Part shown: positions 16,871 to 23,879 of the stretch, piece by piece | Layout of the letters: every line of letters starts with the position of its first letter | How positions within the stretch are numbered: position 1 is the stretch's first letter | Notes under the pieces: model-generated | Database searches by the model: none | The model's input: only the letters and a program-made list of their open reading frames with translations | Told to the model about the DNA's origin: nothing | Assembly (NCBI GenBank): GCA_003602415.1 | Contig: QQSK01000009.1 | Span: 3,891-67,890, forward strand | DNA length: 64,000 bases | Source: Candidatus Poseidoniales archaeon | Lineage (GTDB): Archaea > Thermoplasmatota > Poseidoniia > Poseidoniales > Poseidoniaceae | Reading direction: 5' to 3' | Translations under genes and position numbers: made by a program

Positions 16871-17686
16871 TCACGGTTGAATGCGTTCTATTCTACGAAT
16901 GAACAATAATGATGGAATAATACTCCACAATATCGCTGCTATGCTAGAATAAAGCGGAGAAATTCTACTATTATCTTCGATTGGCATTTCTAATAGGTGA
17001 TGATATACTCCATTTGGTGAGAATAAATCGACTATTGCTTCTATTCGAATATATTCAGATGAATTTAGATTTTCAACACCAACGCCCGATAATCCTGCAA
17101 TCACTGTGGTCATAACTAGCCACAGAAGAGTAAAAATCATCCAAGCCCCAAGACCAATGGCTATTGATGAGCCCATATCTCTGGCCCATGAGGAAGCGAG
17201 CAATTGAATGGATGTCCACCACAACAACAGTAGTGCATTAGCTAATGTGTGGATAAACAACTCTTCAGCAGAGGGAAAATCATCCATCCTAATCCAAATG
17301 ACTCCAAGACTAATCAAATTTAGAATGAAAACAGGAATGAAAATTGCACCCCAATGGCCTAAGAGAAGTGACCTAGCAAAAATAGAACGAGAAACCGGTT
17401 GAGATAATTTGATTTCTAGAACTCCCGACAACCGATCTCTACTGATACCATCAAATGATATCAGGACAGCACCCATGGTCGCTGAGAATATAATGAAAGC
17501 AGTAGATGCGAACATCACATCGTAGGCAGAATCGATTACTATGTTCGAGGGCAGGTTTGCTTTGGGGTCAGACAAACCCCAACTTGAGAATAGAATGAAC
17601 ATGGCAAGAAGTGGCCAAATTACGAGCATCCTTCCTGCAGTCATCCGCTCTTTCATGATATGAACGCCCAGAGAAAATGCATTCAT
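16871..17686 (-). CDS. ABC-2 type transporter permease
   Basis: About six TM segments, motif FDGISRDRLSGVLEIKLSQPVSR, overlap with the ATPase gene. Confidence 0.85.
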   Translation of the reverse strand: MNAFSLGVHIMKERMTAGRMLVIWPLLAMFILFSSWGLSDPKANLPSNIVIDSAYDVMFASTAFIIFSATMGAVLISFDGISRDRLSGVLEIKLSQPVSRSIFARSLLLGHWGAIFIPVFILNLISLGVIWIRMDDFPSAEELFIHTLANALLLLWWTSIQLLASSWARDMGSSIAIGLGAWMIFTLLWLVMTTVIAGLSGVGVENLNSSEYIRIEAIVDLFSPNGVYHHLLEMPIEDNSRISPLYSSIAAILWSIIPSLLFIRRIERIQP

Positions 17687-18492
17687 TCCTCTTCACCTCC
17701 AATCGTCTTGAAAGGCATCATATGGTCTGATGATAAGTCTAAACTAACGTCGCTAGGGTCTATTCCTGTAACCGAACAAATCATCTCAACAAGTCCTGAA
17801 TCATTATCTAAATCCAATGTTCTTCGAACTTCTGAAAGTGAACCTTCAATCAATAATTGCCCCTGATGGAGAAGTGCGATTTCATCGACTAACGATTCCA
17901 TATCTGTAACTTGATGCGATGAGATAACAATTGCAACGCCTTTGGATGCCAAATCTTTCAACAGATTGCAAAATGCACGTTGAGCCAATGGGTCAAGACC
18001 ATTCAAAGGTTCATCCATGACCAAAACCTTGGGGTCACCCATAAGCGCACATGCTAGAGATAATCTCTGCCTCATTCCTTGTGACAAGTTATCCAATAAA
18101 TGGTCAGATTTTGCTGATAAACCAACGATTTGAATTAACTTGTCAATGTCAATAATTCGATTGCGCATTAATGCTATTGATTTCAAAGCATTTCTGACAC
18201 TTACTCGTCCTTCCCATCTAACCTGTTCAGGCATGTAGCCAATGTTTTTCCTACGTTTGGAACAGTCTTTGTCAAAACCTTCGCAGTCATATAGGCCACA
18301 AATTGTTCTCATCAGGGTAGTCTTGCCTGCACCGTTTGGACCTATTAGACCAAGAATAACTCCACTTTTGATTTCCAAATTGATAGAGTGTATTCCTGCA
18401 CCATCTCTGGTAGCCCAAGGTTTCCAAGTGGAATAGTCTCGAACTTTGTGCCGCCACGACACATCGGTTAGAGTCAGGCAGGTCTCCATCAT
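17683..18492 (-). CDS. ABC transporter ATP-binding protein (exporter type)
   Basis: Walker A GPNGAGKT, signature LSQGM, Walker B VMDEP, H-loop SSH. Confidence 0.93.
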   Translation of the reverse strand: MMETCLTLTDVSWRHKVRDYSTWKPWATRDGAGIHSINLEIKSGVILGLIGPNGAGKTTLMRTICGLYDCEGFDKDCSKRRKNIGYMPEQVRWEGRVSVRNALKSIALMRNRIIDIDKLIQIVGLSAKSDHLLDNLSQGMRQRLSLACALMGDPKVLVMDEPLNGLDPLAQRAFCNLLKDLASKGVAIVISSHQVTDMESLVDEIALLHQGQLLIEGSLSEVRRTLDLDNDSGLVEMICSVTGIDPSDVSLDLSSDHMMPFKTIGGEEE

Positions 18493-18538: not shown

Positions 18539-19387
18539 TTGATGGGTTGGACTTATGCTTGTAAAGTGATACGACATGCTGTGTTGGGGGGAATTATAGC
18601 AACCGTTGTCCTTCTGGCAGCATTGTTTGGTATGCTAAAGTGGAGAGCGGAGGAGTTTGACAGAACTTCTCTAATTTCTCTCTCAATCGGTATAATGATG
18701 CTATGGATTATTCCATGGGGGATGTTCATCATAATTCCGTTAGCACTTGCGATTTCATTTGTTAGCCCTGCAGGAAGGGAAGAATGGTCCAGATTCAAAA
18801 ATAGACGAATAGCGATAAGTTTGGTATTGCTAATTATTTTGAATTCATTTGCACTTTATCCGGTTTCTACGCCTGAAGCACCTCCTGAGTGGGGCGAACC
18901 AATTGCAACCGAAAACCCCCATGCAGCAGCGTGGCCAGCTAGTGAGCAATTCACTTGGCTACACGATGGTGCAGTGATTGGCATTGTAAATATCAGAACT
19001 CCACATACTTTCAGTTCATGGGGACAAGACTCCTCTAGTATTTCTTTAGGAGTTATGATGGGAGTCCACGATCAAAGAATGCGCCAATCAATCGAATCTA
19101 TGAATTCGTTTATTCCTGGAGTTTCTATCGATCCAGATACATTTACTTTGTACGAGGTCGAGACCGAAGGTGAACACCTCTATGGGGATGAAGAGTTATT
19201 CATCGCAAGGTTTGATGTTAAGAGAGATGGTTTCGATGCAACTCTTGCAAATGTTTTGGTTGTAGGCTTTCCAAATGCTGGTGGAGAGTTAACTATTCTT
19301 TCAATCACAAGGCCAATCACATCTTCACAAAATGATGTATTCGAAGAAAAAATCGTGATACAGTACGCTGATTATAAATTGGCATGA
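18539..19387 (+). CDS. Hypothetical membrane protein (N-terminal TM bundle plus soluble domain)
   Basis: 282-aa ORF with 3-4 hydrophobic N-terminal segments. The start may be ATG 18542. Confidence 0.7.
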   Translation: MMGWTYACKVIRHAVLGGIIATVVLLAALFGMLKWRAEEFDRTSLISLSIGIMMLWIIPWGMFIIIPLALAISFVSPAGREEWSRFKNRRIAISLVLLIILNSFALYPVSTPEAPPEWGEPIATENPHAAAWPASEQFTWLHDGAVIGIVNIRTPHTFSSWGQDSSSISLGVMMGVHDQRMRQSIESMNSFIPGVSIDPDTFTLYEVETEGEHLYGDEELFIARFDVKRDGFDATLANVLVVGFPNAGGELTILSITRPITSSQNDVFEEKIVIQYADYKLA

Positions 19388-19401
19388 GCATAAATATTAA
19401 T

Positions 19402-19418
19402 TTTTAGGGCAACCTAAA
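19402..19418 (+). promoter_or_regulatory. Palindromic operator-like box 1 (TTTAGG-GCAA-CCTAAA), resembling DtxR/SirR/MntR-family boxes
   Basis: Perfect 6-bp inverted repeat with a 4-nt spacer, immediately downstream of the AT-rich TAAATATTAA (19391-19400) and upstream of the transferrin-like gene. Confidence 0.65.
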
Positions 19419-19435: not shown

Positions 19436-19452
19436 TTTTCGGGCACCCTAAA
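19436..19452 (+). promoter_or_regulatory. Operator-like box 2 (TTTTCGGGCACCCTAAA), a direct repeat of box 1
   Basis: 15/17 identical to TTTTAGGGCAACCTAAA at 19402-19418, 34 bp downstream of it and ending 14 nt before the ATG. Confidence 0.6.
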
Positions 19453-19466
19453 TCGGTGACGATACG

Positions 19467-21668
19467 ATGACAAATACGAAGACAATTTTGATGATTTTTC
19501 TAATGTGCACAGCATCTTTAGCAGGCTGTTTAGGTAGTGACGAAAACGAAGAAGAAATTACAAGCAAGTGTTCTGGTGATGAACTGGTGATTGCGTTTGA
19601 GGTAAAAGAAGACATGAATGCTGATGATATTCAGAACCCTCAGCAAATTGCAGATTATCTATGTGAAAAATTAGGCATGGATGTCAGCATCTACAATGTG
19701 GGGAGTTCAGGATTAGCAATGGAAGCACTCAGATTTGGCAATGCGGACATTGCAATGAATATCGATGGTGGTCCAGCATGGGTCGGATGGAATGCATACG
19801 GTTTGGATGTTATGGCTGCTGATACAAAGAGCGATGGCCGTGCATACTATGATGCACATGCATGGGTAAAAGCAGGTTCAGAAATTGCAGAGGCACACCT
19901 AGATGGTGATGACTCGACAGATCCTTTCTCATTACTAGCAGGCAAAACCTCTTGTCACACAGGATGGTTGAAGTCAGCTGGAATGTTGATGCCTATGGGT
20001 TACATGATTGGTAATGGATATGTTACCGTTCAAGGTGATATGTCTGATACTGAAACCCTGAGGACTACAATCAACCATTATTTCGATGGAAGTACTGGTG
20101 CAGGAAATGCTGCATCAATTCCTGAGAGTGGAGCTCTATACTCAGGATACGATGGCGCTCTAGAGTGCTTAAGTTCTGGCTATGGAGATGTGGCATTTGC
20201 TAAGGATTCAACTCCAGCAGGTTACTGCGCTAATGAAGATGCAACAGAGAATCAAGAATGGTGTCTTGACATGTCTGAATATGTAGCACTTCCAAAGTTT
20301 GGTTCATCACCAAGCCATTCGATTATGTTTAATGACGATGTTTTGGATGACGATAAGGAGACTCTAATCAAGGATGCATTAGTTGCAATGAATGATAATG
20401 AAGAAGGTCTATCCATATTGAATAATGTGCTTGGTACTGAAGCAATCATTGCTACAGATACTGAAACTCATTTGGGCACTTATGGTGCAGCATTGATGAA
20501 CATCCCTGGGATTTCCAGTAAGTACGGAAATGCCTTCGCTGACGGTACACAAACAGGTGCGATAAAGTCCACAATTAACATTGCATATTATTTGGCAGAT
20601 GATTCGGAATCTAACGCACAGGCACAAGGAATGGCTGATAGACTTGAGGCAGATTTAGGGGTAACTGTGAATCTTTATGATGTTTCATCTGAGGGTATGA
20701 TTATCCAAGCGCTTCGATTTGGAAATGTGGATATAGGTTTCCTTGAGGGCGGTCCTGCATGGATTGGATGGAAGGAATATGGGCTATCTGTAATGGCCGT
20801 TGAAACTACAACTTCTGATGGTGCTACACATTACAATGCCTCAGCATGGGCTCTGAACGGGTCGGATATTGCTAACGCGCATCTTGACGGCGATGATTCA
20901 ACAGATCCTTTCGCTCTTTTAGATGGAAAGACCTCCTGTCACACAGGATGGTTGAAGTCTGCGGGCATGTTGATGCCTATGGGTTATCTAATCAAGAACG
21001 GTTATGTTACTCCAGTTGGCGATACAAGTGACATCAATTCCTTGAGAAACACCATTGACACCCATTTTGATGGCTCTACAAGCAATGGTAATGCTGCCTC
21101 AATTCCTGATTCTGGAGCACTTTACTCCGGTTACAGTGGAGCGATAGAGTGTCTAAGTTCTGGATACGGAGATGTAGCCTTTGCTAAAGGAGATGATTTC
21201 AGTACTCCACACAAGTATTGTGACAATGATGATGAATCAGAGAATGAAGAATGGTGTCTTGAAATGGATGAATACGTTCAATTGCCATCTTTCGGACAAT
21301 CTCCTAGCCATCCATTAATGTACAACCCAGATATGTTGGATGTATACACTCGAAATGCAATTCTAAATGCAATGCTAAGTTGGGGTGACGAAATGTGGGT
21401 TGAGGATTATCCAATGGGCAATCAAACATATACTGGATGTTACAATGTCGTAACTCATCAAGTTGCAGATATTCCATCCAATCAGTGTGGTAGTGAGATA
21501 ATCTCGGAAGTAACTTCGAAAGGATACAGATTAGTTGCTGGAAACAGCCAGAATCACTTAGGTAGTTATTCTGATCTATTAGGGTCGATCCCAGGTCTGT
21601 CTGAGTACTACCATTCTTCTGACAAATATGGAATCTCTGATGCAGAGTCAGGTCAGCAGCAGGATTAA
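19467..21668 (+). CDS. Bilobal transferrin-family substrate-binding lipoprotein (likely auto-annotated as PhnD/phosphonate-binding)
   Basis: Lipobox LAGC (C21). Each lobe has transferrin motifs: IDGG/LEGG, YxAxAWxK-like, GKTSCHTGWLKSAG, YSGYxGAxECLSSGYGDVAFAK and PSH. Confidence 0.88.
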   Translation: MTNTKTILMIFLMCTASLAGCLGSDENEEEITSKCSGDELVIAFEVKEDMNADDIQNPQQIADYLCEKLGMDVSIYNVGSSGLAMEALRFGNADIAMNIDGGPAWVGWNAYGLDVMAADTKSDGRAYYDAHAWVKAGSEIAEAHLDGDDSTDPFSLLAGKTSCHTGWLKSAGMLMPMGYMIGNGYVTVQGDMSDTETLRTTINHYFDGSTGAGNAASIPESGALYSGYDGALECLSSGYGDVAFAKDSTPAGYCANEDATENQEWCLDMSEYVALPKFGSSPSHSIMFNDDVLDDDKETLIKDALVAMNDNEEGLSILNNVLGTEAIIATDTETHLGTYGAALMNIPGISSKYGNAFADGTQTGAIKSTINIAYYLADDSESNAQAQGMADRLEADLGVTVNLYDVSSEGMIIQALRFGNVDIGFLEGGPAWIGWKEYGLSVMAVETTTSDGATHYNASAWALNGSDIANAHLDGDDSTDPFALLDGKTSCHTGWLKSAGMLMPMGYLIKNGYVTPVGDTSDINSLRNTIDTHFDGSTSNGNAASIPDSGALYSGYSGAIECLSSGYGDVAFAKGDDFSTPHKYCDNDDESENEEWCLEMDEYVQLPSFGQSPSHPLMYNPDMLDVYTRNAILNAMLSWGDEMWVEDYPMGNQTYTGCYNVVTHQVADIPSNQCGSEIISEVTSKGYRLVAGNSQNHLGSYSDLLGSIPGLSEYYHSSDKYGISDAESGQQQD

Positions 21669-21724
21669 AATGCCGGCTCTACATAAGATAATTCTAAGGA
21701 ATCACTGCTGAAGATATTGGTTCA

Positions 21725-21801
21725 ATGTGAGATTGTCCTCCTCACATAACTCAAAATCTAGGGGTGGCTGGCTAAAACGCCAACCACTAGCCAGCTACCC
21801 C
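21725..21801 (+). other. Two intergenic stem-loops between the binding-protein and ATPase genes
   Basis: ATGTGAG-N9-CTCACAT (21725-21747) and GGGGTGGCTGGCTA-N13-TAGCCAGCTACCCC (21761-21801; 14 bp, one G-U pair). Confidence 0.7.
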
Positions 21802-21849
21802 ACTTAGTTTATCACAATTTAATTGTAAGGTTTTGAATACGCGATAATA

Positions 21850-22587
21850 GTGGCTAAGTTTGGGGGAATTAATTTGTCGAGCAGCGAAGAAGTCCTCCAC
21901 AAAACAGAGGATTCGGATAGTACATCTGAATCAGGTGCCCTAGAATTGCGAAATCTATCCGTTGGGTATGCTGATGCATTGATTTCGGAGATCAATGTTA
22001 GTATAGTTCAAGGTGAAACTATAGCAATTCTAGGGTCCTCTGGCATTGGAAAAACCACTTTGCTGAGGACGATTGCAGGCTTGATTCGCCCTCTTGAGGG
22101 AGAAGTGATTCACGATTTCCCTAAGAGGAGTGGAATCGGATATATTCCTCAAAGACTAGGACTGATCAGGCACTCAAGCGTTAGAAGCAACGTAGCTATT
22201 GGTGCTCGGACTAGAAAACCGAAATGGTATCCTGCATTATTCCCGCTTGGAAGTGAATTGAACTCAGATATAGATTCAGCATTAGCAGAATTGAGTATTG
22301 GAGAATATGCCAAAACTCCTGTAAGAATTCTATCAGGTGGACAACAGAGACGAGTTGCAATTGCAAGAGCATTGGTCCAGAAACCAAAACTGATACTTGC
22401 TGATGAATTTTTGGGTGAGTTAGATAAAGAGAATGTAGATTCTATAATTCAGGCAACTAAGAAACTGATTTCTGAAACAGGTTCCACACTCATCATGGTT
22501 GAACATCATGAATCTCGAGCATACCAAATTGCAGACAGAATCTTGCGAATTAAGGATGGTAAGATTGTCGAAGAGGTGAGCCAATGA
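21850..22587 (+). CDS. ABC transporter ATP-binding protein, PhnC-like
   Basis: GSSGIGKT, LSGGQQRRVAIARAL, LADE, VEH. The segment YIPQRLGLIRHSSVRSNVAIG resembles PhnC. Confidence 0.9.
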   Translation: MAKFGGINLSSSEEVLHKTEDSDSTSESGALELRNLSVGYADALISEINVSIVQGETIAILGSSGIGKTTLLRTIAGLIRPLEGEVIHDFPKRSGIGYIPQRLGLIRHSSVRSNVAIGARTRKPKWYPALFPLGSELNSDIDSALAELSIGEYAKTPVRILSGGQQRRVAIARALVQKPKLILADEFLGELDKENVDSIIQATKKLISETGSTLIMVEHHESRAYQIADRILRIKDGKIVEEVSQ

Positions 22588-23525
22588 ATAACAAATTCAT
22601 TATTGCCTCGGTAATCTTGCTTTCCCTGACCTGGGTTTTCTTAGATGATTTAGTTGATGATTGGGGTCAAATCGAAAGTGCGCCTGATAGACTTGAGACA
22701 TTTTTCTACGAAGATTTGTGGCCGCCTGATTGGTCGGTTCTTGAAGCAGAGGAATGGGTTGATGGAACTCTTCACAAACCAAACGGTGAACTTTGTACAG
22801 AGAGTTACGAAATATTCTGTTCGAAGGCTTGGACTGGAATGGAAATTACGATTAAAATGGCTTTTATTTCAACCTTAATTGGTTTCATTATTTCAGTGCC
22901 GCTTGCTTCTCTATCTGCTAATAATCTGGTTCCTCTACCAATCGCTATACCTGCAAGGATAGTTCTCGCAGGGTTGAGAAGTCTGCCTAGTATCATCTGG
23001 GCCCTTCTATTCGCAATCGCCCTAGGTTTTGGTCCATTGCCAGGTATTCTAGCTATGACTCTCTACACTATTGGCTATCTAGGAAAATTGCAGTATGAAG
23101 CAATGGAAGGCATTGCAAATGCTCCTCTTGAATCGGCTATGGCGATGGGCCTTACTCATTCTGAGCGACTAGTCCATGTTGTTATCCCTGAGTCCAGCAA
23201 CGATCTTCTCAGCCAACTAATGTTCATGTTCGAATATAATGTAAGACATGGAACAGTTCTAGGATTAGTAGGTGCAGGCGGAATTGGAATGTATATTGAT
23301 AATTACATCAATCCACCATTTGCTTATGACAAAGCCTTCGCGTTGTTAATTGTTGTATTCGTAGTTGTAGTAATCATCGATCTATTGTCGATGTTCGCAC
23401 GCTCTTTTGTTACTGAACAAGGTGATGTAAAGCGACCAAAATGGTGGACTGTATTGCTACCTGCTGGATTTGCAGCTGACTATTATAACAAATCCAAAGA
23501 CTCGGACTCTGAAGAATCGGAGTAG
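22584..23525 (+). CDS. ABC transporter permease, PhnE/PtxC-like
   Basis: RSLPSIIWALLF..GFGPLPGILA, EAA-loop region (EAMEGI..PLESAMAMG), FEYNVRHGTVLGLVGAGGIG. ATGA overlap with the ATPase gene. Confidence 0.9.
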   Translation: MNNKFIIASVILLSLTWVFLDDLVDDWGQIESAPDRLETFFYEDLWPPDWSVLEAEEWVDGTLHKPNGELCTESYEIFCSKAWTGMEITIKMAFISTLIGFIISVPLASLSANNLVPLPIAIPARIVLAGLRSLPSIIWALLFAIALGFGPLPGILAMTLYTIGYLGKLQYEAMEGIANAPLESAMAMGLTHSERLVHVVIPESSNDLLSQLMFMFEYNVRHGTVLGLVGAGGIGMYIDNYINPPFAYDKAFALLIVVFVVVVIIDLLSMFARSFVTEQGDVKRPKWWTVLLPAGFAADYYNKSKDSDSEESE

Positions 23526-23879
23526 TTATTTTCTCATATTCGATATAATCTTGTAAACAATATCACGAATTGGAAGTGGAATGATCCAAGCAAATGGGTA
23601 CAACAATTTCCAATTCCATTTCATGTACAATAAGCATCTTATTGCTGCTGATGAATGTAGATACTTCTTTTTGTTTCGAATTAGAATTAGTGAATCAGCA
23701 TTGATATTATACTCTGAAATGACCGTTTTACCAAAATCAGAGTCTTGTTCTAAAATCTCTAATTCAGCAGTTTGTCGCTTGGAAATAAATTTACCAGTTC
23801 TGGTGCATAGACCGCATAGGCCGTCTATCAGCAGTACATCTTTTTCCATATCACTCAGCGGCGATGTGAACATTCCCAT
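23526..23879 (-). CDS. DCC1-like thiol-disulfide oxidoreductase (DUF393)
   Basis: N-terminal DGLCGLC (DxxCxxC) and C-terminal PLPIRDIVYKII, typical of the family. Confidence 0.85.
   Translation of the reverse strand: MGMFTSPLSDMEKDVLLIDGLCGLCTRTGKFISKRQTAELEILEQDSDFGKTVISEYNINADSLILIRNKKKYLHSSAAIRCLLYMKWNWKLLYPFAWIIPLPIRDIVYKIISNMRK

What the first reader, a model, noticed from the sequence alone, without database searches (positions are those of the whole stretch)
19467..23525. Transferrin coupled to a PhnC/PhnE-type ABC importer: a candidate new iron-uptake system
Seen: the transferrin-like lipoprotein is followed by a PhnC-like ATPase and a single PhnE-like permease (ATGA overlap) whose N-terminal loop carries a Cys pair (ELCTESYEIFCSK). 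No C-P lyase, PhnX or PtxD gene is in the window. Established: eukaryotic transferrins deliver iron by receptor-mediated endocytosis, and prokaryotic Fe(III) ABC systems use FbpA/FutA with FbpB-type permeases. Inference: a phosphonate-type ABC chassis repurposed for Fe(III), which would be a plausible functional intermediate between anion-binding PBPs and transferrins.
Basis: partly seen in the sequence, partly recalled or inferred. Interest (0 to 1): 0.85.

Follow-up and report, generated by a model that had tools for sequence, protein, structure and literature searches.

The report
Archaeal transferrin-type iron ABC importer
An abundant ocean archaeon (Marine Group II) carries an operon that the literature reads as "phosphonate uptake", but its surface binding protein is a two-lobed relative of blood transferrin with every iron-binding residue intact and sits behind an iron-repressor-type switch, so it most likely imports ferric iron and marks a prokaryotic branch next to animal transferrins.

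Summary
A 733-aa lipoprotein (19467-21668) passes Pfam's cut-offs for both Transferrin and Phosphonate-bd. It is followed by a PhnC-like ATPase and a single PhnE-like permease (ATGA overlap) with a conserved Cys pair.

The iron reading is supported by indirect evidence:
- Both lobes keep the transferrin ligand set (Asp/Glu, Tyr, Tyr, His) and the anion site (Thr, with Lys for Arg). These positions are invariant in 119 homologues.
- Two TTTAGG-N4-CCTAAA boxes lie between a TATA-like element and the start codon. This box is conserved in 70 of 75 orthologous loci. It matches the ChIP-defined operator of the iron regulator TroR of Haloferax, not the Mn (SirR) motif.
- In other lineages a dtxR gene lies beside or inside the operon, or the operon is interleaved with FecCD-type transporter, flavodoxin and HugZ-like genes.
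- The binding protein is in 259 of 301 Poseidoniales genomes. PhnJ is in 0 of 301 and PhnX in 0 of 201.

The nearest non-archaeal relatives are ichthyosporean and animal transferrins, not bacterial PhnD. In trees the archaeal lobes lie outside a monophyletic eukaryotic clade.

Iron binding and transport are untested. I found no paper describing this. I rate it a new variant of a known kind.

The parts
19390..19400 (+). TATA-like element (ATAAATATTAA) of the operon promoter
   Evidence: Read directly from the sequence. It lies immediately upstream of operator box 1. Its role as a TATA box is inferred.
19403..19418 (.). Operator box 1, TTTAGGGCAACCTAAA, a perfect TTTAGG-N4-CCTAAA palindrome
   Evidence: It is the only exact 16-mer of this kind in the 1.89-Mb genome. 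A TTAGG-N4-CCTAA box sits at about -70 or -36 in 70 of 75 orthologous loci, with a variable N4. It is identical in form to the H. volcanii TroR ChIP-seq motif TTTAGGC-NNN-CCTAAA (PMC10783522).
19437..19452 (.). Operator box 2, TTTCGGGCACCCTAAA, 34 bp downstream of box 1
   Evidence: A second box at this spacing is conserved in relatives. TroR sites also occur as tandems about 30 bp apart.
19467..21668 (+). Two-lobed transferrin-family substrate-binding lipoprotein, 733 aa, lipobox Cys21
   Evidence: Pfam Transferrin and Phosphonate-bd both pass. The best PDB sequence hits are lactoferrin and ovotransferrin, E = 1e-18. The top 50 Foldseek matches of the full-length model are all transferrins. 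Ligand residues are invariant.
19572..20531 (+). Lobe 1 (aa 36-355): Asp100, Tyr128, Tyr228, His284, with Thr165 and Lys169 at the anion site; Cys163, 234, 254, 266
   Evidence: These positions align with human transferrin Asp63, Tyr95, Tyr188, His249, Thr120 and Arg124.
20562..21617 (+). Lobe 2 (aa 366-717): Glu427 (Asp in 89 of 119 homologues), Tyr456, Tyr556, His615, with Thr493 and Lys497
21761..21801 (+). Intercistronic hairpin with a 14-bp perfect stem, between the binding-protein gene and the ATPase gene
   Evidence: RNA fold of the spacer: -49.9 kcal/mol, z = -3.3. A role as transcript stabiliser or attenuator, giving excess binding protein, is inferred.
21850..22587 (+). ABC ATPase, PhnC-like
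   Evidence: ABC_tran 106 bits. TIGR02315 144.8 bits, below the equivalog cut-off. It follows the binding-protein gene in 76 of 80 loci.
22584..23525 (+). Single PhnE-like permease (BPD_transp_1); presumably works as a homodimer
   Evidence: TIGR01097 215.6 bits against a cut-off of 216.7. ATGA overlap with the ATPase gene. Found in 67 of 80 loci.
22794..22820 (+). Conserved Cys pair (C71 and C79) in the N-terminal extracellular loop of the permease, after the WPPDW motif
   Evidence: Conserved in all aligned orthologues where this region could be read, with variable spacing. Its function (disulfide or metal hand-over) is unknown.

Best explanation
This is an iron-repressed, binding-protein-dependent ABC importer for ferric iron.

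Proposed mechanism: the membrane-anchored two-lobed lipoprotein captures Fe(III) in each lobe. It uses Asp (or Glu), two Tyr and His, plus a synergistic anion (carbonate or similar) held by Thr, Lys and a helix N-terminus. This is how a transferrin lobe works. Instead of being endocytosed, the loaded protein docks on a PhnE-type permease homodimer, and the PhnC-type ATPase drives iron across the membrane. When iron is sufficient, a DtxR/TroR-type repressor binds two TTTAGG-N4-CCTAAA boxes placed between the TATA-like element and the start codon and shuts the operon off. One such repressor gene is present elsewhere in this genome.

Shown here: gene order, family membership, ligand conservation, operator conservation, gene linkage and distribution.

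Inferred: iron as the ligand, the identity of the anion, the repressor-operator pairing, and docking and translocation.
For: 1. Family. Pfam Transferrin scores 97.6 bits. The best PDB sequence matches are lactoferrins and ovotransferrins. Among 1.84 billion representative proteins only 317 match, and after the archaeal ones come ichthyosporean and animal transferrins. Against the archaeal lobe HMM, E. coli PhnD scores 11.9 bits, animal lobes about 38-82 and ichthyosporean lobes about 32-148.

2. Site. Asp, Tyr, Tyr, His, Thr and Lys align with human transferrin D63, Y95, Y188, H249, T120 and R124. They are invariant in both lobes in 119 homologues of 47-91% identity. E. coli PhnD has Gly, His and Asp at three of these positions (the Asp63, Tyr188 and His249 equivalents) and S-T-S where this protein has K-S-A at the anion site.

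3. Regulation. The boxes are conserved in 70 of 75 loci with a free N4 spacer. They match the experimentally defined iron-TroR motif, including its tandem arrangement, and do not match the Mn-SirR motif (PMC10783522).

4. Linkage to regulators. A dtxR gene follows the permease gene in the single-lobe operon of another Thermoplasmatota archaeon. It is divergent and adjacent in 5 other loci. These regulators keep the Cys-x2-Glu-His metal-site motif.

5. Linkage to iron genes. In L073 and L080 a Peripla_BP_2/FecCD/ATPase system, a flavodoxin and a HugZ-like (DUF2470) gene are inserted between the transferrin gene and its ATPase on the same strand. L088, L040, L075 and L076 show related arrangements.

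6. No phosphonate use. PhnJ is in 0 of 301 genomes and PhnX in 0 of 201. A single-cell survey found no phosphonate-consuming archaea, and 80% of its archaea were MGII (bioRxiv 10.1101/2020.11.04.368217).

7. Need. No FecCD system, no HugZ-like gene and no true FeoB were found in this 89%-complete genome. No other dedicated iron importer was seen among those searched.
Against: The permease and ATPase are of PhnE/PhnC type. PhnE misses its equivalog cut-off by only 1 bit.

The single-lobe model matches PtxB, AioX and PhnD structures as well as it matches transferrin lobes, so the fold does not discriminate.

The genome has no PstS. A high-affinity phosphorus role is therefore not excluded, although a PiT transporter is present.

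Lys replaces the carbonate-binding Arg.

The AlphaFold models are of moderate confidence and are weakest at the binding loops.

This genome's own DtxR homologue has Glu at the position of DtxR Met10. Its metal specificity is therefore uncertain. The operator-regulator pairing is by analogy with a haloarchaeon.

Within the 64-kb window alone, two box matches are no more than chance. The weight lies in their placement and their conservation.
Confidence: 0.78

Rival explanations
1. It is what the annotation says: a phosphonate, phosphite or phosphate ABC importer (PhnCDE-like) whose binding protein merely resembles transferrin.
For: Pfam Phosphonate-bd scores 100.5 bits. PhnE scores 215.6 bits against a cut-off of 216.7, and PhnC is the best ATPase model. 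The best single-lobe fold matches include PtxB, AioX and PhnD. There is no PstS in the genome. The MGII literature lists 'transport of phosphonates' as a core trait (PMC6336850).
Against: PhnD-type models are far below cut-off: TIGR03431 scores 44.7 against 261. The phosphonate-contacting S-T-S and His of E. coli PhnD are replaced by K-S-A and Tyr, and an Asp and a His complete a metal site. PhnJ is in 0 of 301 genomes and PhnX in 0 of 201. The operator is of the iron-TroR type, and dtxR, flavodoxin, FecCD and HugZ-like genes are linked to the operon. A PiT phosphate transporter is present.
Confidence: 0.07
2. It imports a different metal species: Mn, another hard trivalent or tetravalent cation, or an iron chelate (for example Fe-citrate or a small organic Fe complex) rather than Fe(III) with carbonate.
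For: DtxR-family regulators can sense Mn. This genome's regulator has Glu at the Met10 position. Solved transferrin structures bind Ti, Al, Bi, Cr, Yb and Ru, and take alternative anions, as the PDB matches show. Lys in place of Arg at the anion site could change anion preference.
Against: The box matches the iron-TroR motif and not the Mn-SirR motif. The linked regulators keep the Cys of the DtxR/IdeR-type site. Flavodoxin and heme or siderophore-type genes in the same clusters point to iron stress. From my own knowledge, a Tyr2-Asp-His site is the classic Fe(III) site, and Mn(II) binding proteins belong to a different fold class.
Confidence: 0.12
3. The binding protein acts mainly outside transport, for example in surface iron storage or buffering, or as a sensor. 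On this view its adjacency to the ABC genes is historical.
For: Copy number and lobe number vary. There are tandem two-lobed copies in L024, a three-lobed 1156-aa form P0030 and extra single-lobe copies in many genomes. A strong hairpin separates the binding-protein gene from the ATPase gene.
Against: The SBP-ATPase-permease order is kept across both MGII families, MGIII and a distant single-lobe lineage. Where iron genes are inserted, the ABC genes still follow on the same strand. A hairpin after the binding-protein gene is, from my own knowledge, usual in ABC importer operons.
Confidence: 0.03

Closest known systems
Eukaryotic transferrins (serum transferrin, lactoferrin, ovotransferrin, melanotransferrin; multi-lobe transferrins of Ichthyosporea and green algae; Pfam PF00405)
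   Same: Same sequence family. Two homologous lobes. Same ligand positions (Asp, Tyr, Tyr, His) and same anion-site Thr and helix (SCHTG...SAG), plus conserved Cys that align with the transferrin Cys118 and Cys194 positions. Lys at the Arg124 position is also seen in ichthyosporean lobes and in skate and axolotl N-lobes.
   Different: It is a lipoprotein encoded in an operon with an ABC ATPase and permease, so delivery is by ABC import and not by receptor-mediated endocytosis. The lobe duplication appears independent of the eukaryotic one: archaeal lobes 1 and 2 group together. It lacks the Cys-rich insertions of animal transferrins. It is under a prokaryotic DtxR-type operator.
FbpABC / FutABC / SfuABC ferric-ion ABC importers, whose FbpA is the so-called 'bacterial transferrin'
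   Same: The proposed overall mechanism is the same: a periplasmic or surface class II binding protein holds naked Fe(III) with Tyr ligands and a synergistic anion, and hands it to a type I ABC importer under iron-responsive repression (own knowledge of the FbpA family).
   Different: The binding protein is not of the FbpA family; no such Pfam or NCBIfam hit appeared. It is a true PF00405 member and has two lobes. The permease is a single PhnE-type subunit, not an FbpB-type fused double permease. The ferric ATPase model NF008513 ranks below PhnC.
PhnCDE / PtxABC phosphonate and phosphite ABC importers
   Same: The permease and ATPase are most similar to PhnE and PhnC. The binding protein is a distant relative of PhnD and PtxB in sequence (Pfam Phosphonate-bd) and in fold. 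The gene set is the same three components.
   Different: The binding site is rebuilt into a transferrin metal site. There are no catabolic partners in the order. Regulation is iron-type, not Pho-type.
Haloferax volcanii TroR regulon (DtxR family; PMC10783522). Also, from memory, Archaeoglobus MDR1, a DtxR-type repressor encoded with a metal ABC transporter
   Same: The operator form TTTAGG-N4-CCTAAA and its tandem sites about 30 bp apart are the same, and it lies upstream of iron-uptake genes. A DtxR-family gene is linked to the transporter in several lineages.
   Different: The phylum is different (Thermoplasmatota). In this genome the only DtxR homologue lies on another contig and has Glu at the Met10-equivalent position. 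Only this one promoter in the genome carries good boxes.

Membership tests
Transferrin family (PF00405) | Sequence passes the curated family threshold | tested here: met
   97.6 bits against a cut-off of 20.3, with two stretches. The best PDB hits are lactoferrin and ovotransferrin, E = 1e-18.
Transferrin family (PF00405) | Four protein ligands for Fe(III): Asp63, Tyr95, Tyr188, His249 (human N-lobe numbering) | tested here: met
   Lobe 1 has D100, Y128, Y228, H284. Lobe 2 has E427, Y456, Y556, H615. They are invariant in 119 homologues, with D (89) or E (30) at the lobe-2 Asp position.
Transferrin family (PF00405) | Synergistic-anion site: Thr120, Arg124 and a helix N-terminus | tested here: inconclusive
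   The Thr and the S-A-G helix start are conserved. Arg is replaced by an invariant Lys. The same Lys occurs in ichthyosporean lobes and some vertebrate N-lobes. Anion binding itself was not testable.
Transferrin family (PF00405) | Transferrin-lobe fold, two lobes | tested here: met
   For the full-length model the top 50 PDB matches are all transferrins, probability 1.0. For the single lobe, transferrin lobes reach TM 0.55-0.62, but PtxB and AioX score equally well. The fold is therefore compatible but not discriminating.
Transferrin family (PF00405) | Binds Fe(III) reversibly (biochemical definition) | not testable with these tools
   Needs purified protein.
Transferrin family (PF00405) | Delivery by receptor-mediated endocytosis | tested here: not met
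   The organism is prokaryotic. The gene is in an operon with an ABC ATPase and permease.
PhnCDE phosphonate ABC transporter | PhnD, PhnC and PhnE equivalog thresholds | tested here: not met
   PhnD TIGR03431: 44.7 against 261. PhnC TIGR02315: 144.8 against 266. PhnE TIGR01097: 215.6 against 216.7, a borderline miss.
PhnCDE phosphonate ABC transporter | Phosphonate-contacting residues of PhnD (S-T-S loop, His157) | tested here: not met
   They align to K-S-A and Tyr228. The residue roles in E. coli PhnD are from my own knowledge of the PhnD structure.
PhnCDE phosphonate ABC transporter | Co-occurrence with a C-P cleavage or phosphite oxidation pathway | tested here: not met
   PhnJ is in 0 of 301 genomes and PhnX in 0 of 201 above cut-off. 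PtxD, PhnZ and PhnA were not tested here. A published survey found no phosphonate-consuming archaea.
FbpABC-type ferric ABC importer | FbpA-family binding protein and FbpB-type double permease | tested here: not met
   No FbpA-type family hit for the binding protein. The permease is a single PhnE-like subunit.
DtxR/TroR iron regulon | TTTAGG-N4-CCTAAA operator(s) in the promoter | tested here: met
   Two boxes at 19403-19418 and 19437-19452. The box is conserved in 70 of 75 loci. The motif is as defined by ChIP-seq for TroR.
DtxR/TroR iron regulon | Cognate DtxR-family regulator present, with iron-dependent repression | tested here: inconclusive
   One DtxR homologue is in the genome. dtxR is linked to the operon in 7 other loci. 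Binding and iron dependence are not testable here.

The most novel reading that the evidence does not exclude
The transferrin-type binding proteins of Poseidoniales and related Thermoplasmatota may be the prokaryotic sister, or the ancestral stock, of all eukaryotic transferrins. On this reading the complete Fe(III)/anion site, the SCHTG motif and the conserved Cys framework were already in place on an ABC importer before the family entered eukaryotes, by transfer from a marine archaeon-like donor. The two-lobed architecture then arose independently in archaea and in eukaryotes. That would give the origin of transferrin a living, testable intermediate.
Probability: 0.45. Interest if true: 0.9.

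Novelty: new variant of a known kind. Interest (0 to 1): 0.8.

Why it matters
Marine Group II archaea are among the most abundant planktonic archaea in surface oceans. This operon is close to a core gene set of the order (259 of 301 genomes).

If it imports iron and not phosphonate, published metabolic reconstructions of these archaea mis-assign a phosphorus trait and miss their main iron-acquisition route. Metagenomic and metatranscriptomic counts of "phnD" in the ocean would then be contaminated by an iron gene.

It would also add a new class of ferric ABC importer, one with a true transferrin as its binding protein.

Finally, it gives an experimentally tractable prokaryotic relative for the long-standing question of where transferrins came from. 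A transferrin that must release iron at the cell surface without endosomal acidification is also interesting as a matter of mechanism.

Tried and rejected
- I first took the His of the animal 'C-H-L-A' stretch for the His249 ligand and concluded that the archaeal proteins lack it. PDB chain numbering showed that the ligand is the His of 'V-P-S-H'. The rabbit transferrin and duck ovotransferrin alignments place H284 at positions 249 and 250, and this His is invariant here. I withdrew the earlier conclusion.
- A genome-wide search for further operator sites found only one-mismatch sites. Most lie inside genes. Two are intergenic: one upstream of an ftsZ-like gene, and one between divergent genes for an ABC exporter and an unannotated 142-aa ORF. 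I treat these as chance.
- FeoB_N hits in the genome cover only about 40-57 positions of the G domain in 370-430-aa frames. They are generic GTPases, not FeoB.
- The single-lobe fold search does not separate transferrin from PtxB, AioX or PhnD.
I used FastTree on all 130 and IQ-TREE on 57 instead.
- Literature searches for transferrin together with MGII or Ichthyosporea gave only false matches to the word 'transferring'.
- Within the window alone the box count equals chance. The argument rests on position and conservation.

Full report
**The observation.** The first (19467-21668) encodes a 733-aa protein with a signal peptide and the lipobox LAGC. It passes the curated thresholds of two Pfam families at once: Transferrin (97.6 bits, cut-off 20.3) and Phosphonate-bd (100.5 bits, cut-off 27). 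Its two halves are 52% identical. A 181-bp spacer follows, with a 14-bp perfect hairpin. Next comes an ABC ATPase (21850-22587) whose best NCBIfam model is PhnC, though far below the equivalog cut-off. Last is a single permease (22584-23525) that misses the PhnE equivalog cut-off by one bit. The ATGA overlap is real. The Cys pair in the permease's N-terminal loop is real and is conserved in all orthologues where that region could be read.

**The binding protein is a transferrin, not just transferrin-like.** Against all PDB sequences the best matches are lactoferrins and ovotransferrins (E = 1e-18). No PhnD or PtxB chain ranks among the best 60 of 88 matches. A full HMMER scan of 1.84 billion representative proteins found only 317 relatives. 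After the archaeal ones, the closest are multi-lobe transferrins of Ichthyosporea (Chromosphaera at 35% identity and E = 1e-107, Creolimax, Amoebidium at 40%, Ichthyophonus, Sphaeroforma). Then come a 12-lobe protein of the green alga Bryopsis and animal transferrins and melanotransferrins. Against an HMM of the archaeal lobes, E. coli PhnD scores 11.9 bits, animal lobes about 38-82 and ichthyosporean lobes about 32-148. The full-length AlphaFold model (pLDDT 74) has transferrins as its 50 best PDB matches. A single-lobe model matches transferrin lobes and PtxB, AioX and PhnD about equally. So the fold alone does not discriminate, as expected if the two families are related.

**The metal site.** In the lobe alignment, D100, Y128, Y228 and H284 stand at human transferrin Asp63, Tyr95, Tyr188 and His249. 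T165 and K169 stand at Thr120 and Arg124, within the motif SCHTGWLKSAG (animal SCHTGLGRSAG). I first misread His249 as absent. PDB numbering corrected this: the rabbit transferrin alignment ends so that H284 falls on residue 249, and the duck ovotransferrin alignment puts it on 250, which are the ligand histidines of those proteins. Lobe 2 has E427, Y456, Y556, H615, T493 and K497. In 119 two-lobed homologues of 47-91% identity these positions are invariant. The only exceptions are D or E at the lobe-2 acidic position (89 against 30) and three singleton substitutions in lobe 1 (one each at Thr165, Lys169 and His284). Four Cys per lobe are invariant too. E. coli PhnD has Gly, His and Asp at three of the ligand columns (the Asp63, Tyr188 and His249 equivalents), and S-T-S where this protein has K-S-A. 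Lys at the Arg124 column also occurs in ichthyosporean lobes and in skate and axolotl N-lobes. From my own knowledge, Arg124 and His249 variants of human transferrin still bind iron but release it more easily. A somewhat weaker anion site would suit a protein that must release iron at the cell surface. That last step is inference.

**Regulation.** Between a TATA-like ATAAATATTAA and the ATG lie TTTAGGGCAACCTAAA (19403-19418) and, 34 bp further on, TTTCGGGCACCCTAAA (19437-19452). At one mismatch or fewer, these are the only two such 16-mers in the 1.89-Mb genome. Two matches in 64 kb are no more than chance. But TTAGG-N4-CCTAA boxes stand at about -70 and -36 in 70 of 75 orthologous loci from other species, with the arms fixed and the N4 spacer free. 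That is a phylogenetic footprint of a dimeric regulator. In Haloferax volcanii, ChIP-seq, RNA-seq and reporter assays define the operator of TroR, the iron-responsive DtxR-family regulator, as TTTAGGC-NNN-CCTAAA. It often occurs in tandem about 30 bp apart, upstream of iron-uptake genes. The Mn-linked SirR motif is different: TTTwGAnnnnTCwAAA (PMC10783522). The boxes here are of the TroR type. This genome has one DtxR-family gene, on another contig.

**Gene linkage in relatives.** The SBP-ATPase-permease order holds in 67 to 76 of 80 loci. These cover both MGII families and an MGIII genome. Three kinds of linkage point to iron:
- In a single-lobe version from another Thermoplasmatota archaeon, the operon is SBP, ATPase, permease, DtxR on one strand, with a TTCGG-N4-CCGAA palindrome upstream.
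- In five loci (MGIII type) a dtxR gene is divergent and adjacent, with three boxes in the shared spacer. These regulators keep the A-C-R-[LM]-E-H motif. The MGIII-type ones also keep the Met that, from my own knowledge, marks the Fe-sensing site of DtxR/IdeR.
- In L073 and L080, six genes are inserted between the transferrin gene and its ATPase on the same strand: a surface protein, a Peripla_BP_2/FecCD/ATPase transporter, a flavodoxin and a CREG/DUF2470 (HugZ-like) protein. L088 and L089 (single-lobe form), L040, L075 and L076 show flavodoxin or FecCD neighbours.

**Against phosphonate.** The binding protein is present in 259 of 301 Poseidoniales genomes and 23 of 26 genera. PhnJ is in 0 of 301 and PhnX above cut-off in 0 of 201. 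The own genome has no PhnJ and no other Phosphonate-bd protein. The MGII literature lists 'transport of phosphonates' as a core trait (PMC6336850). A single-cell survey found no phosphonate-consuming archaea, and 80% of its archaea were MGII (10.1101/2020.11.04.368217). Caveats: PtxD, PhnZ and PhnA were not searched here. This genome also lacks PstS, although it has a PiT transporter. No FecCD system, HugZ-like gene or real FeoB was found in it.

**Evolution.** I built trees of single lobes rooted on E. coli PhnD: FastTree on 130 lobes and IQ-TREE LG+F+G4 on 57. Five unnamed single-lobe prokaryotic proteins come out basal. One of them sits in a PhnD-like/ATPase/permease operon on a high-GC contig. 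A clade of all archaeal and all eukaryotic lobes has UFBoot 100. Eukaryotes are monophyletic (97). Archaeal lobes lie outside them, with weak support for archaeal monophyly (59). Archaeal lobes 1 and 2 group with each other and with archaeal single-lobe forms, so the duplication is independent of the eukaryotic one. The root rests on one named outgroup. Transfer from a eukaryote into archaea is therefore not excluded.

**What is known, and novelty.** Ferric ABC importers with a transferrin-like FbpA are well known, and so are transferrins and DtxR/TroR regulons. What I did not find in the held literature is any description of a true PF00405 transferrin serving as the binding protein of an ABC importer, or of transferrins in archaea. 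Databases name these proteins 'PhnD/SsuA/transferrin family' or 'phosphonate-binding', and one pipeline even called one 'melanoma-associated antigen p97'. Earlier AI notes of this scan reach the same reading for eight other genomes. They are not independent evidence, but they pointed me to the TroR paper, which I checked.

**Verdict.** I put the best explanation, an iron-repressed Fe(III) ABC importer with a transferrin-family binding protein, at about 0.78. It is a new variant of a known kind. Interest is high because it changes the reading of a core trait of very abundant ocean archaea and makes the origin of transferrins testable.

Noticed in passing
window 18539-19387 (+): A 282-aa membrane protein with no Pfam hit ends 15 bp before operator box 1. 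Together with the divergent ABC-2 exporter pair (16871-18492, minus strand) it is a conserved upstream neighbour in about half of the related loci (36 of 80 at 25-71% identity). Any link to the iron operon is unknown.
   Followed up: partly
window 21761-21801: A 14-bp perfect hairpin lies in the 181-bp spacer between the binding-protein and ATPase genes (z = -3.3 for the spacer). It may be a stabiliser or attenuator that gives excess binding protein.
   Followed up: partly
window 23526-23879 (-): A DCC1-like thiol-disulfide oxidoreductase is convergent with the permease and abuts it with no gap. It is conserved only in the closest relatives (6 of 80 loci). It might relate to the permease or binding-protein disulfides, or be coincidental.
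   Followed up: partly
L024 7971-12507; protein P0030: Lobe and copy number vary. One MGII genome has two tandem two-lobed transferrin genes before the ATPase. Another protein has three lobes (1156 aa). Many Poseidoniales genomes also or only carry single-lobe forms of about 350-400 aa.
   Followed up: partly
own genome, contig 16: 284773-286038 (L092): The only phosphate transporter found is a PiT/PHO4 domain inside a 721-aa open frame. No PstS-type binding protein was detected in this 89%-complete genome.
   Followed up: no
L088 7286-8482: In the single-lobe Poseidoniales locus a PQQ-type glucose/sorbosone dehydrogenase (GSDH) gene sits between the transferrin-like gene and the convergent permease and ATPase genes. 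Its role is unknown.
   Followed up: no
L011 and L067: Contigs carrying this archaeal operon are filed in MAGs labelled Pseudobdellovibrionaceae and Rhodobiaceae. Given 82% and 49% identity to the archaeal proteins and the archaeal gene order, these are most likely binning errors.
   Followed up: no
L087 622-3199: One of the five basal single-lobe relatives (P0198) lies on a high-GC metagenome contig. It has the Asp, Tyr, Tyr and His columns but a PhnD-like T-G-S-S-G anion loop, and sits in an SBP-ATPase-permease operon. It could be an earlier step towards the transferrin site. Its organism is unknown.
   Followed up: partly
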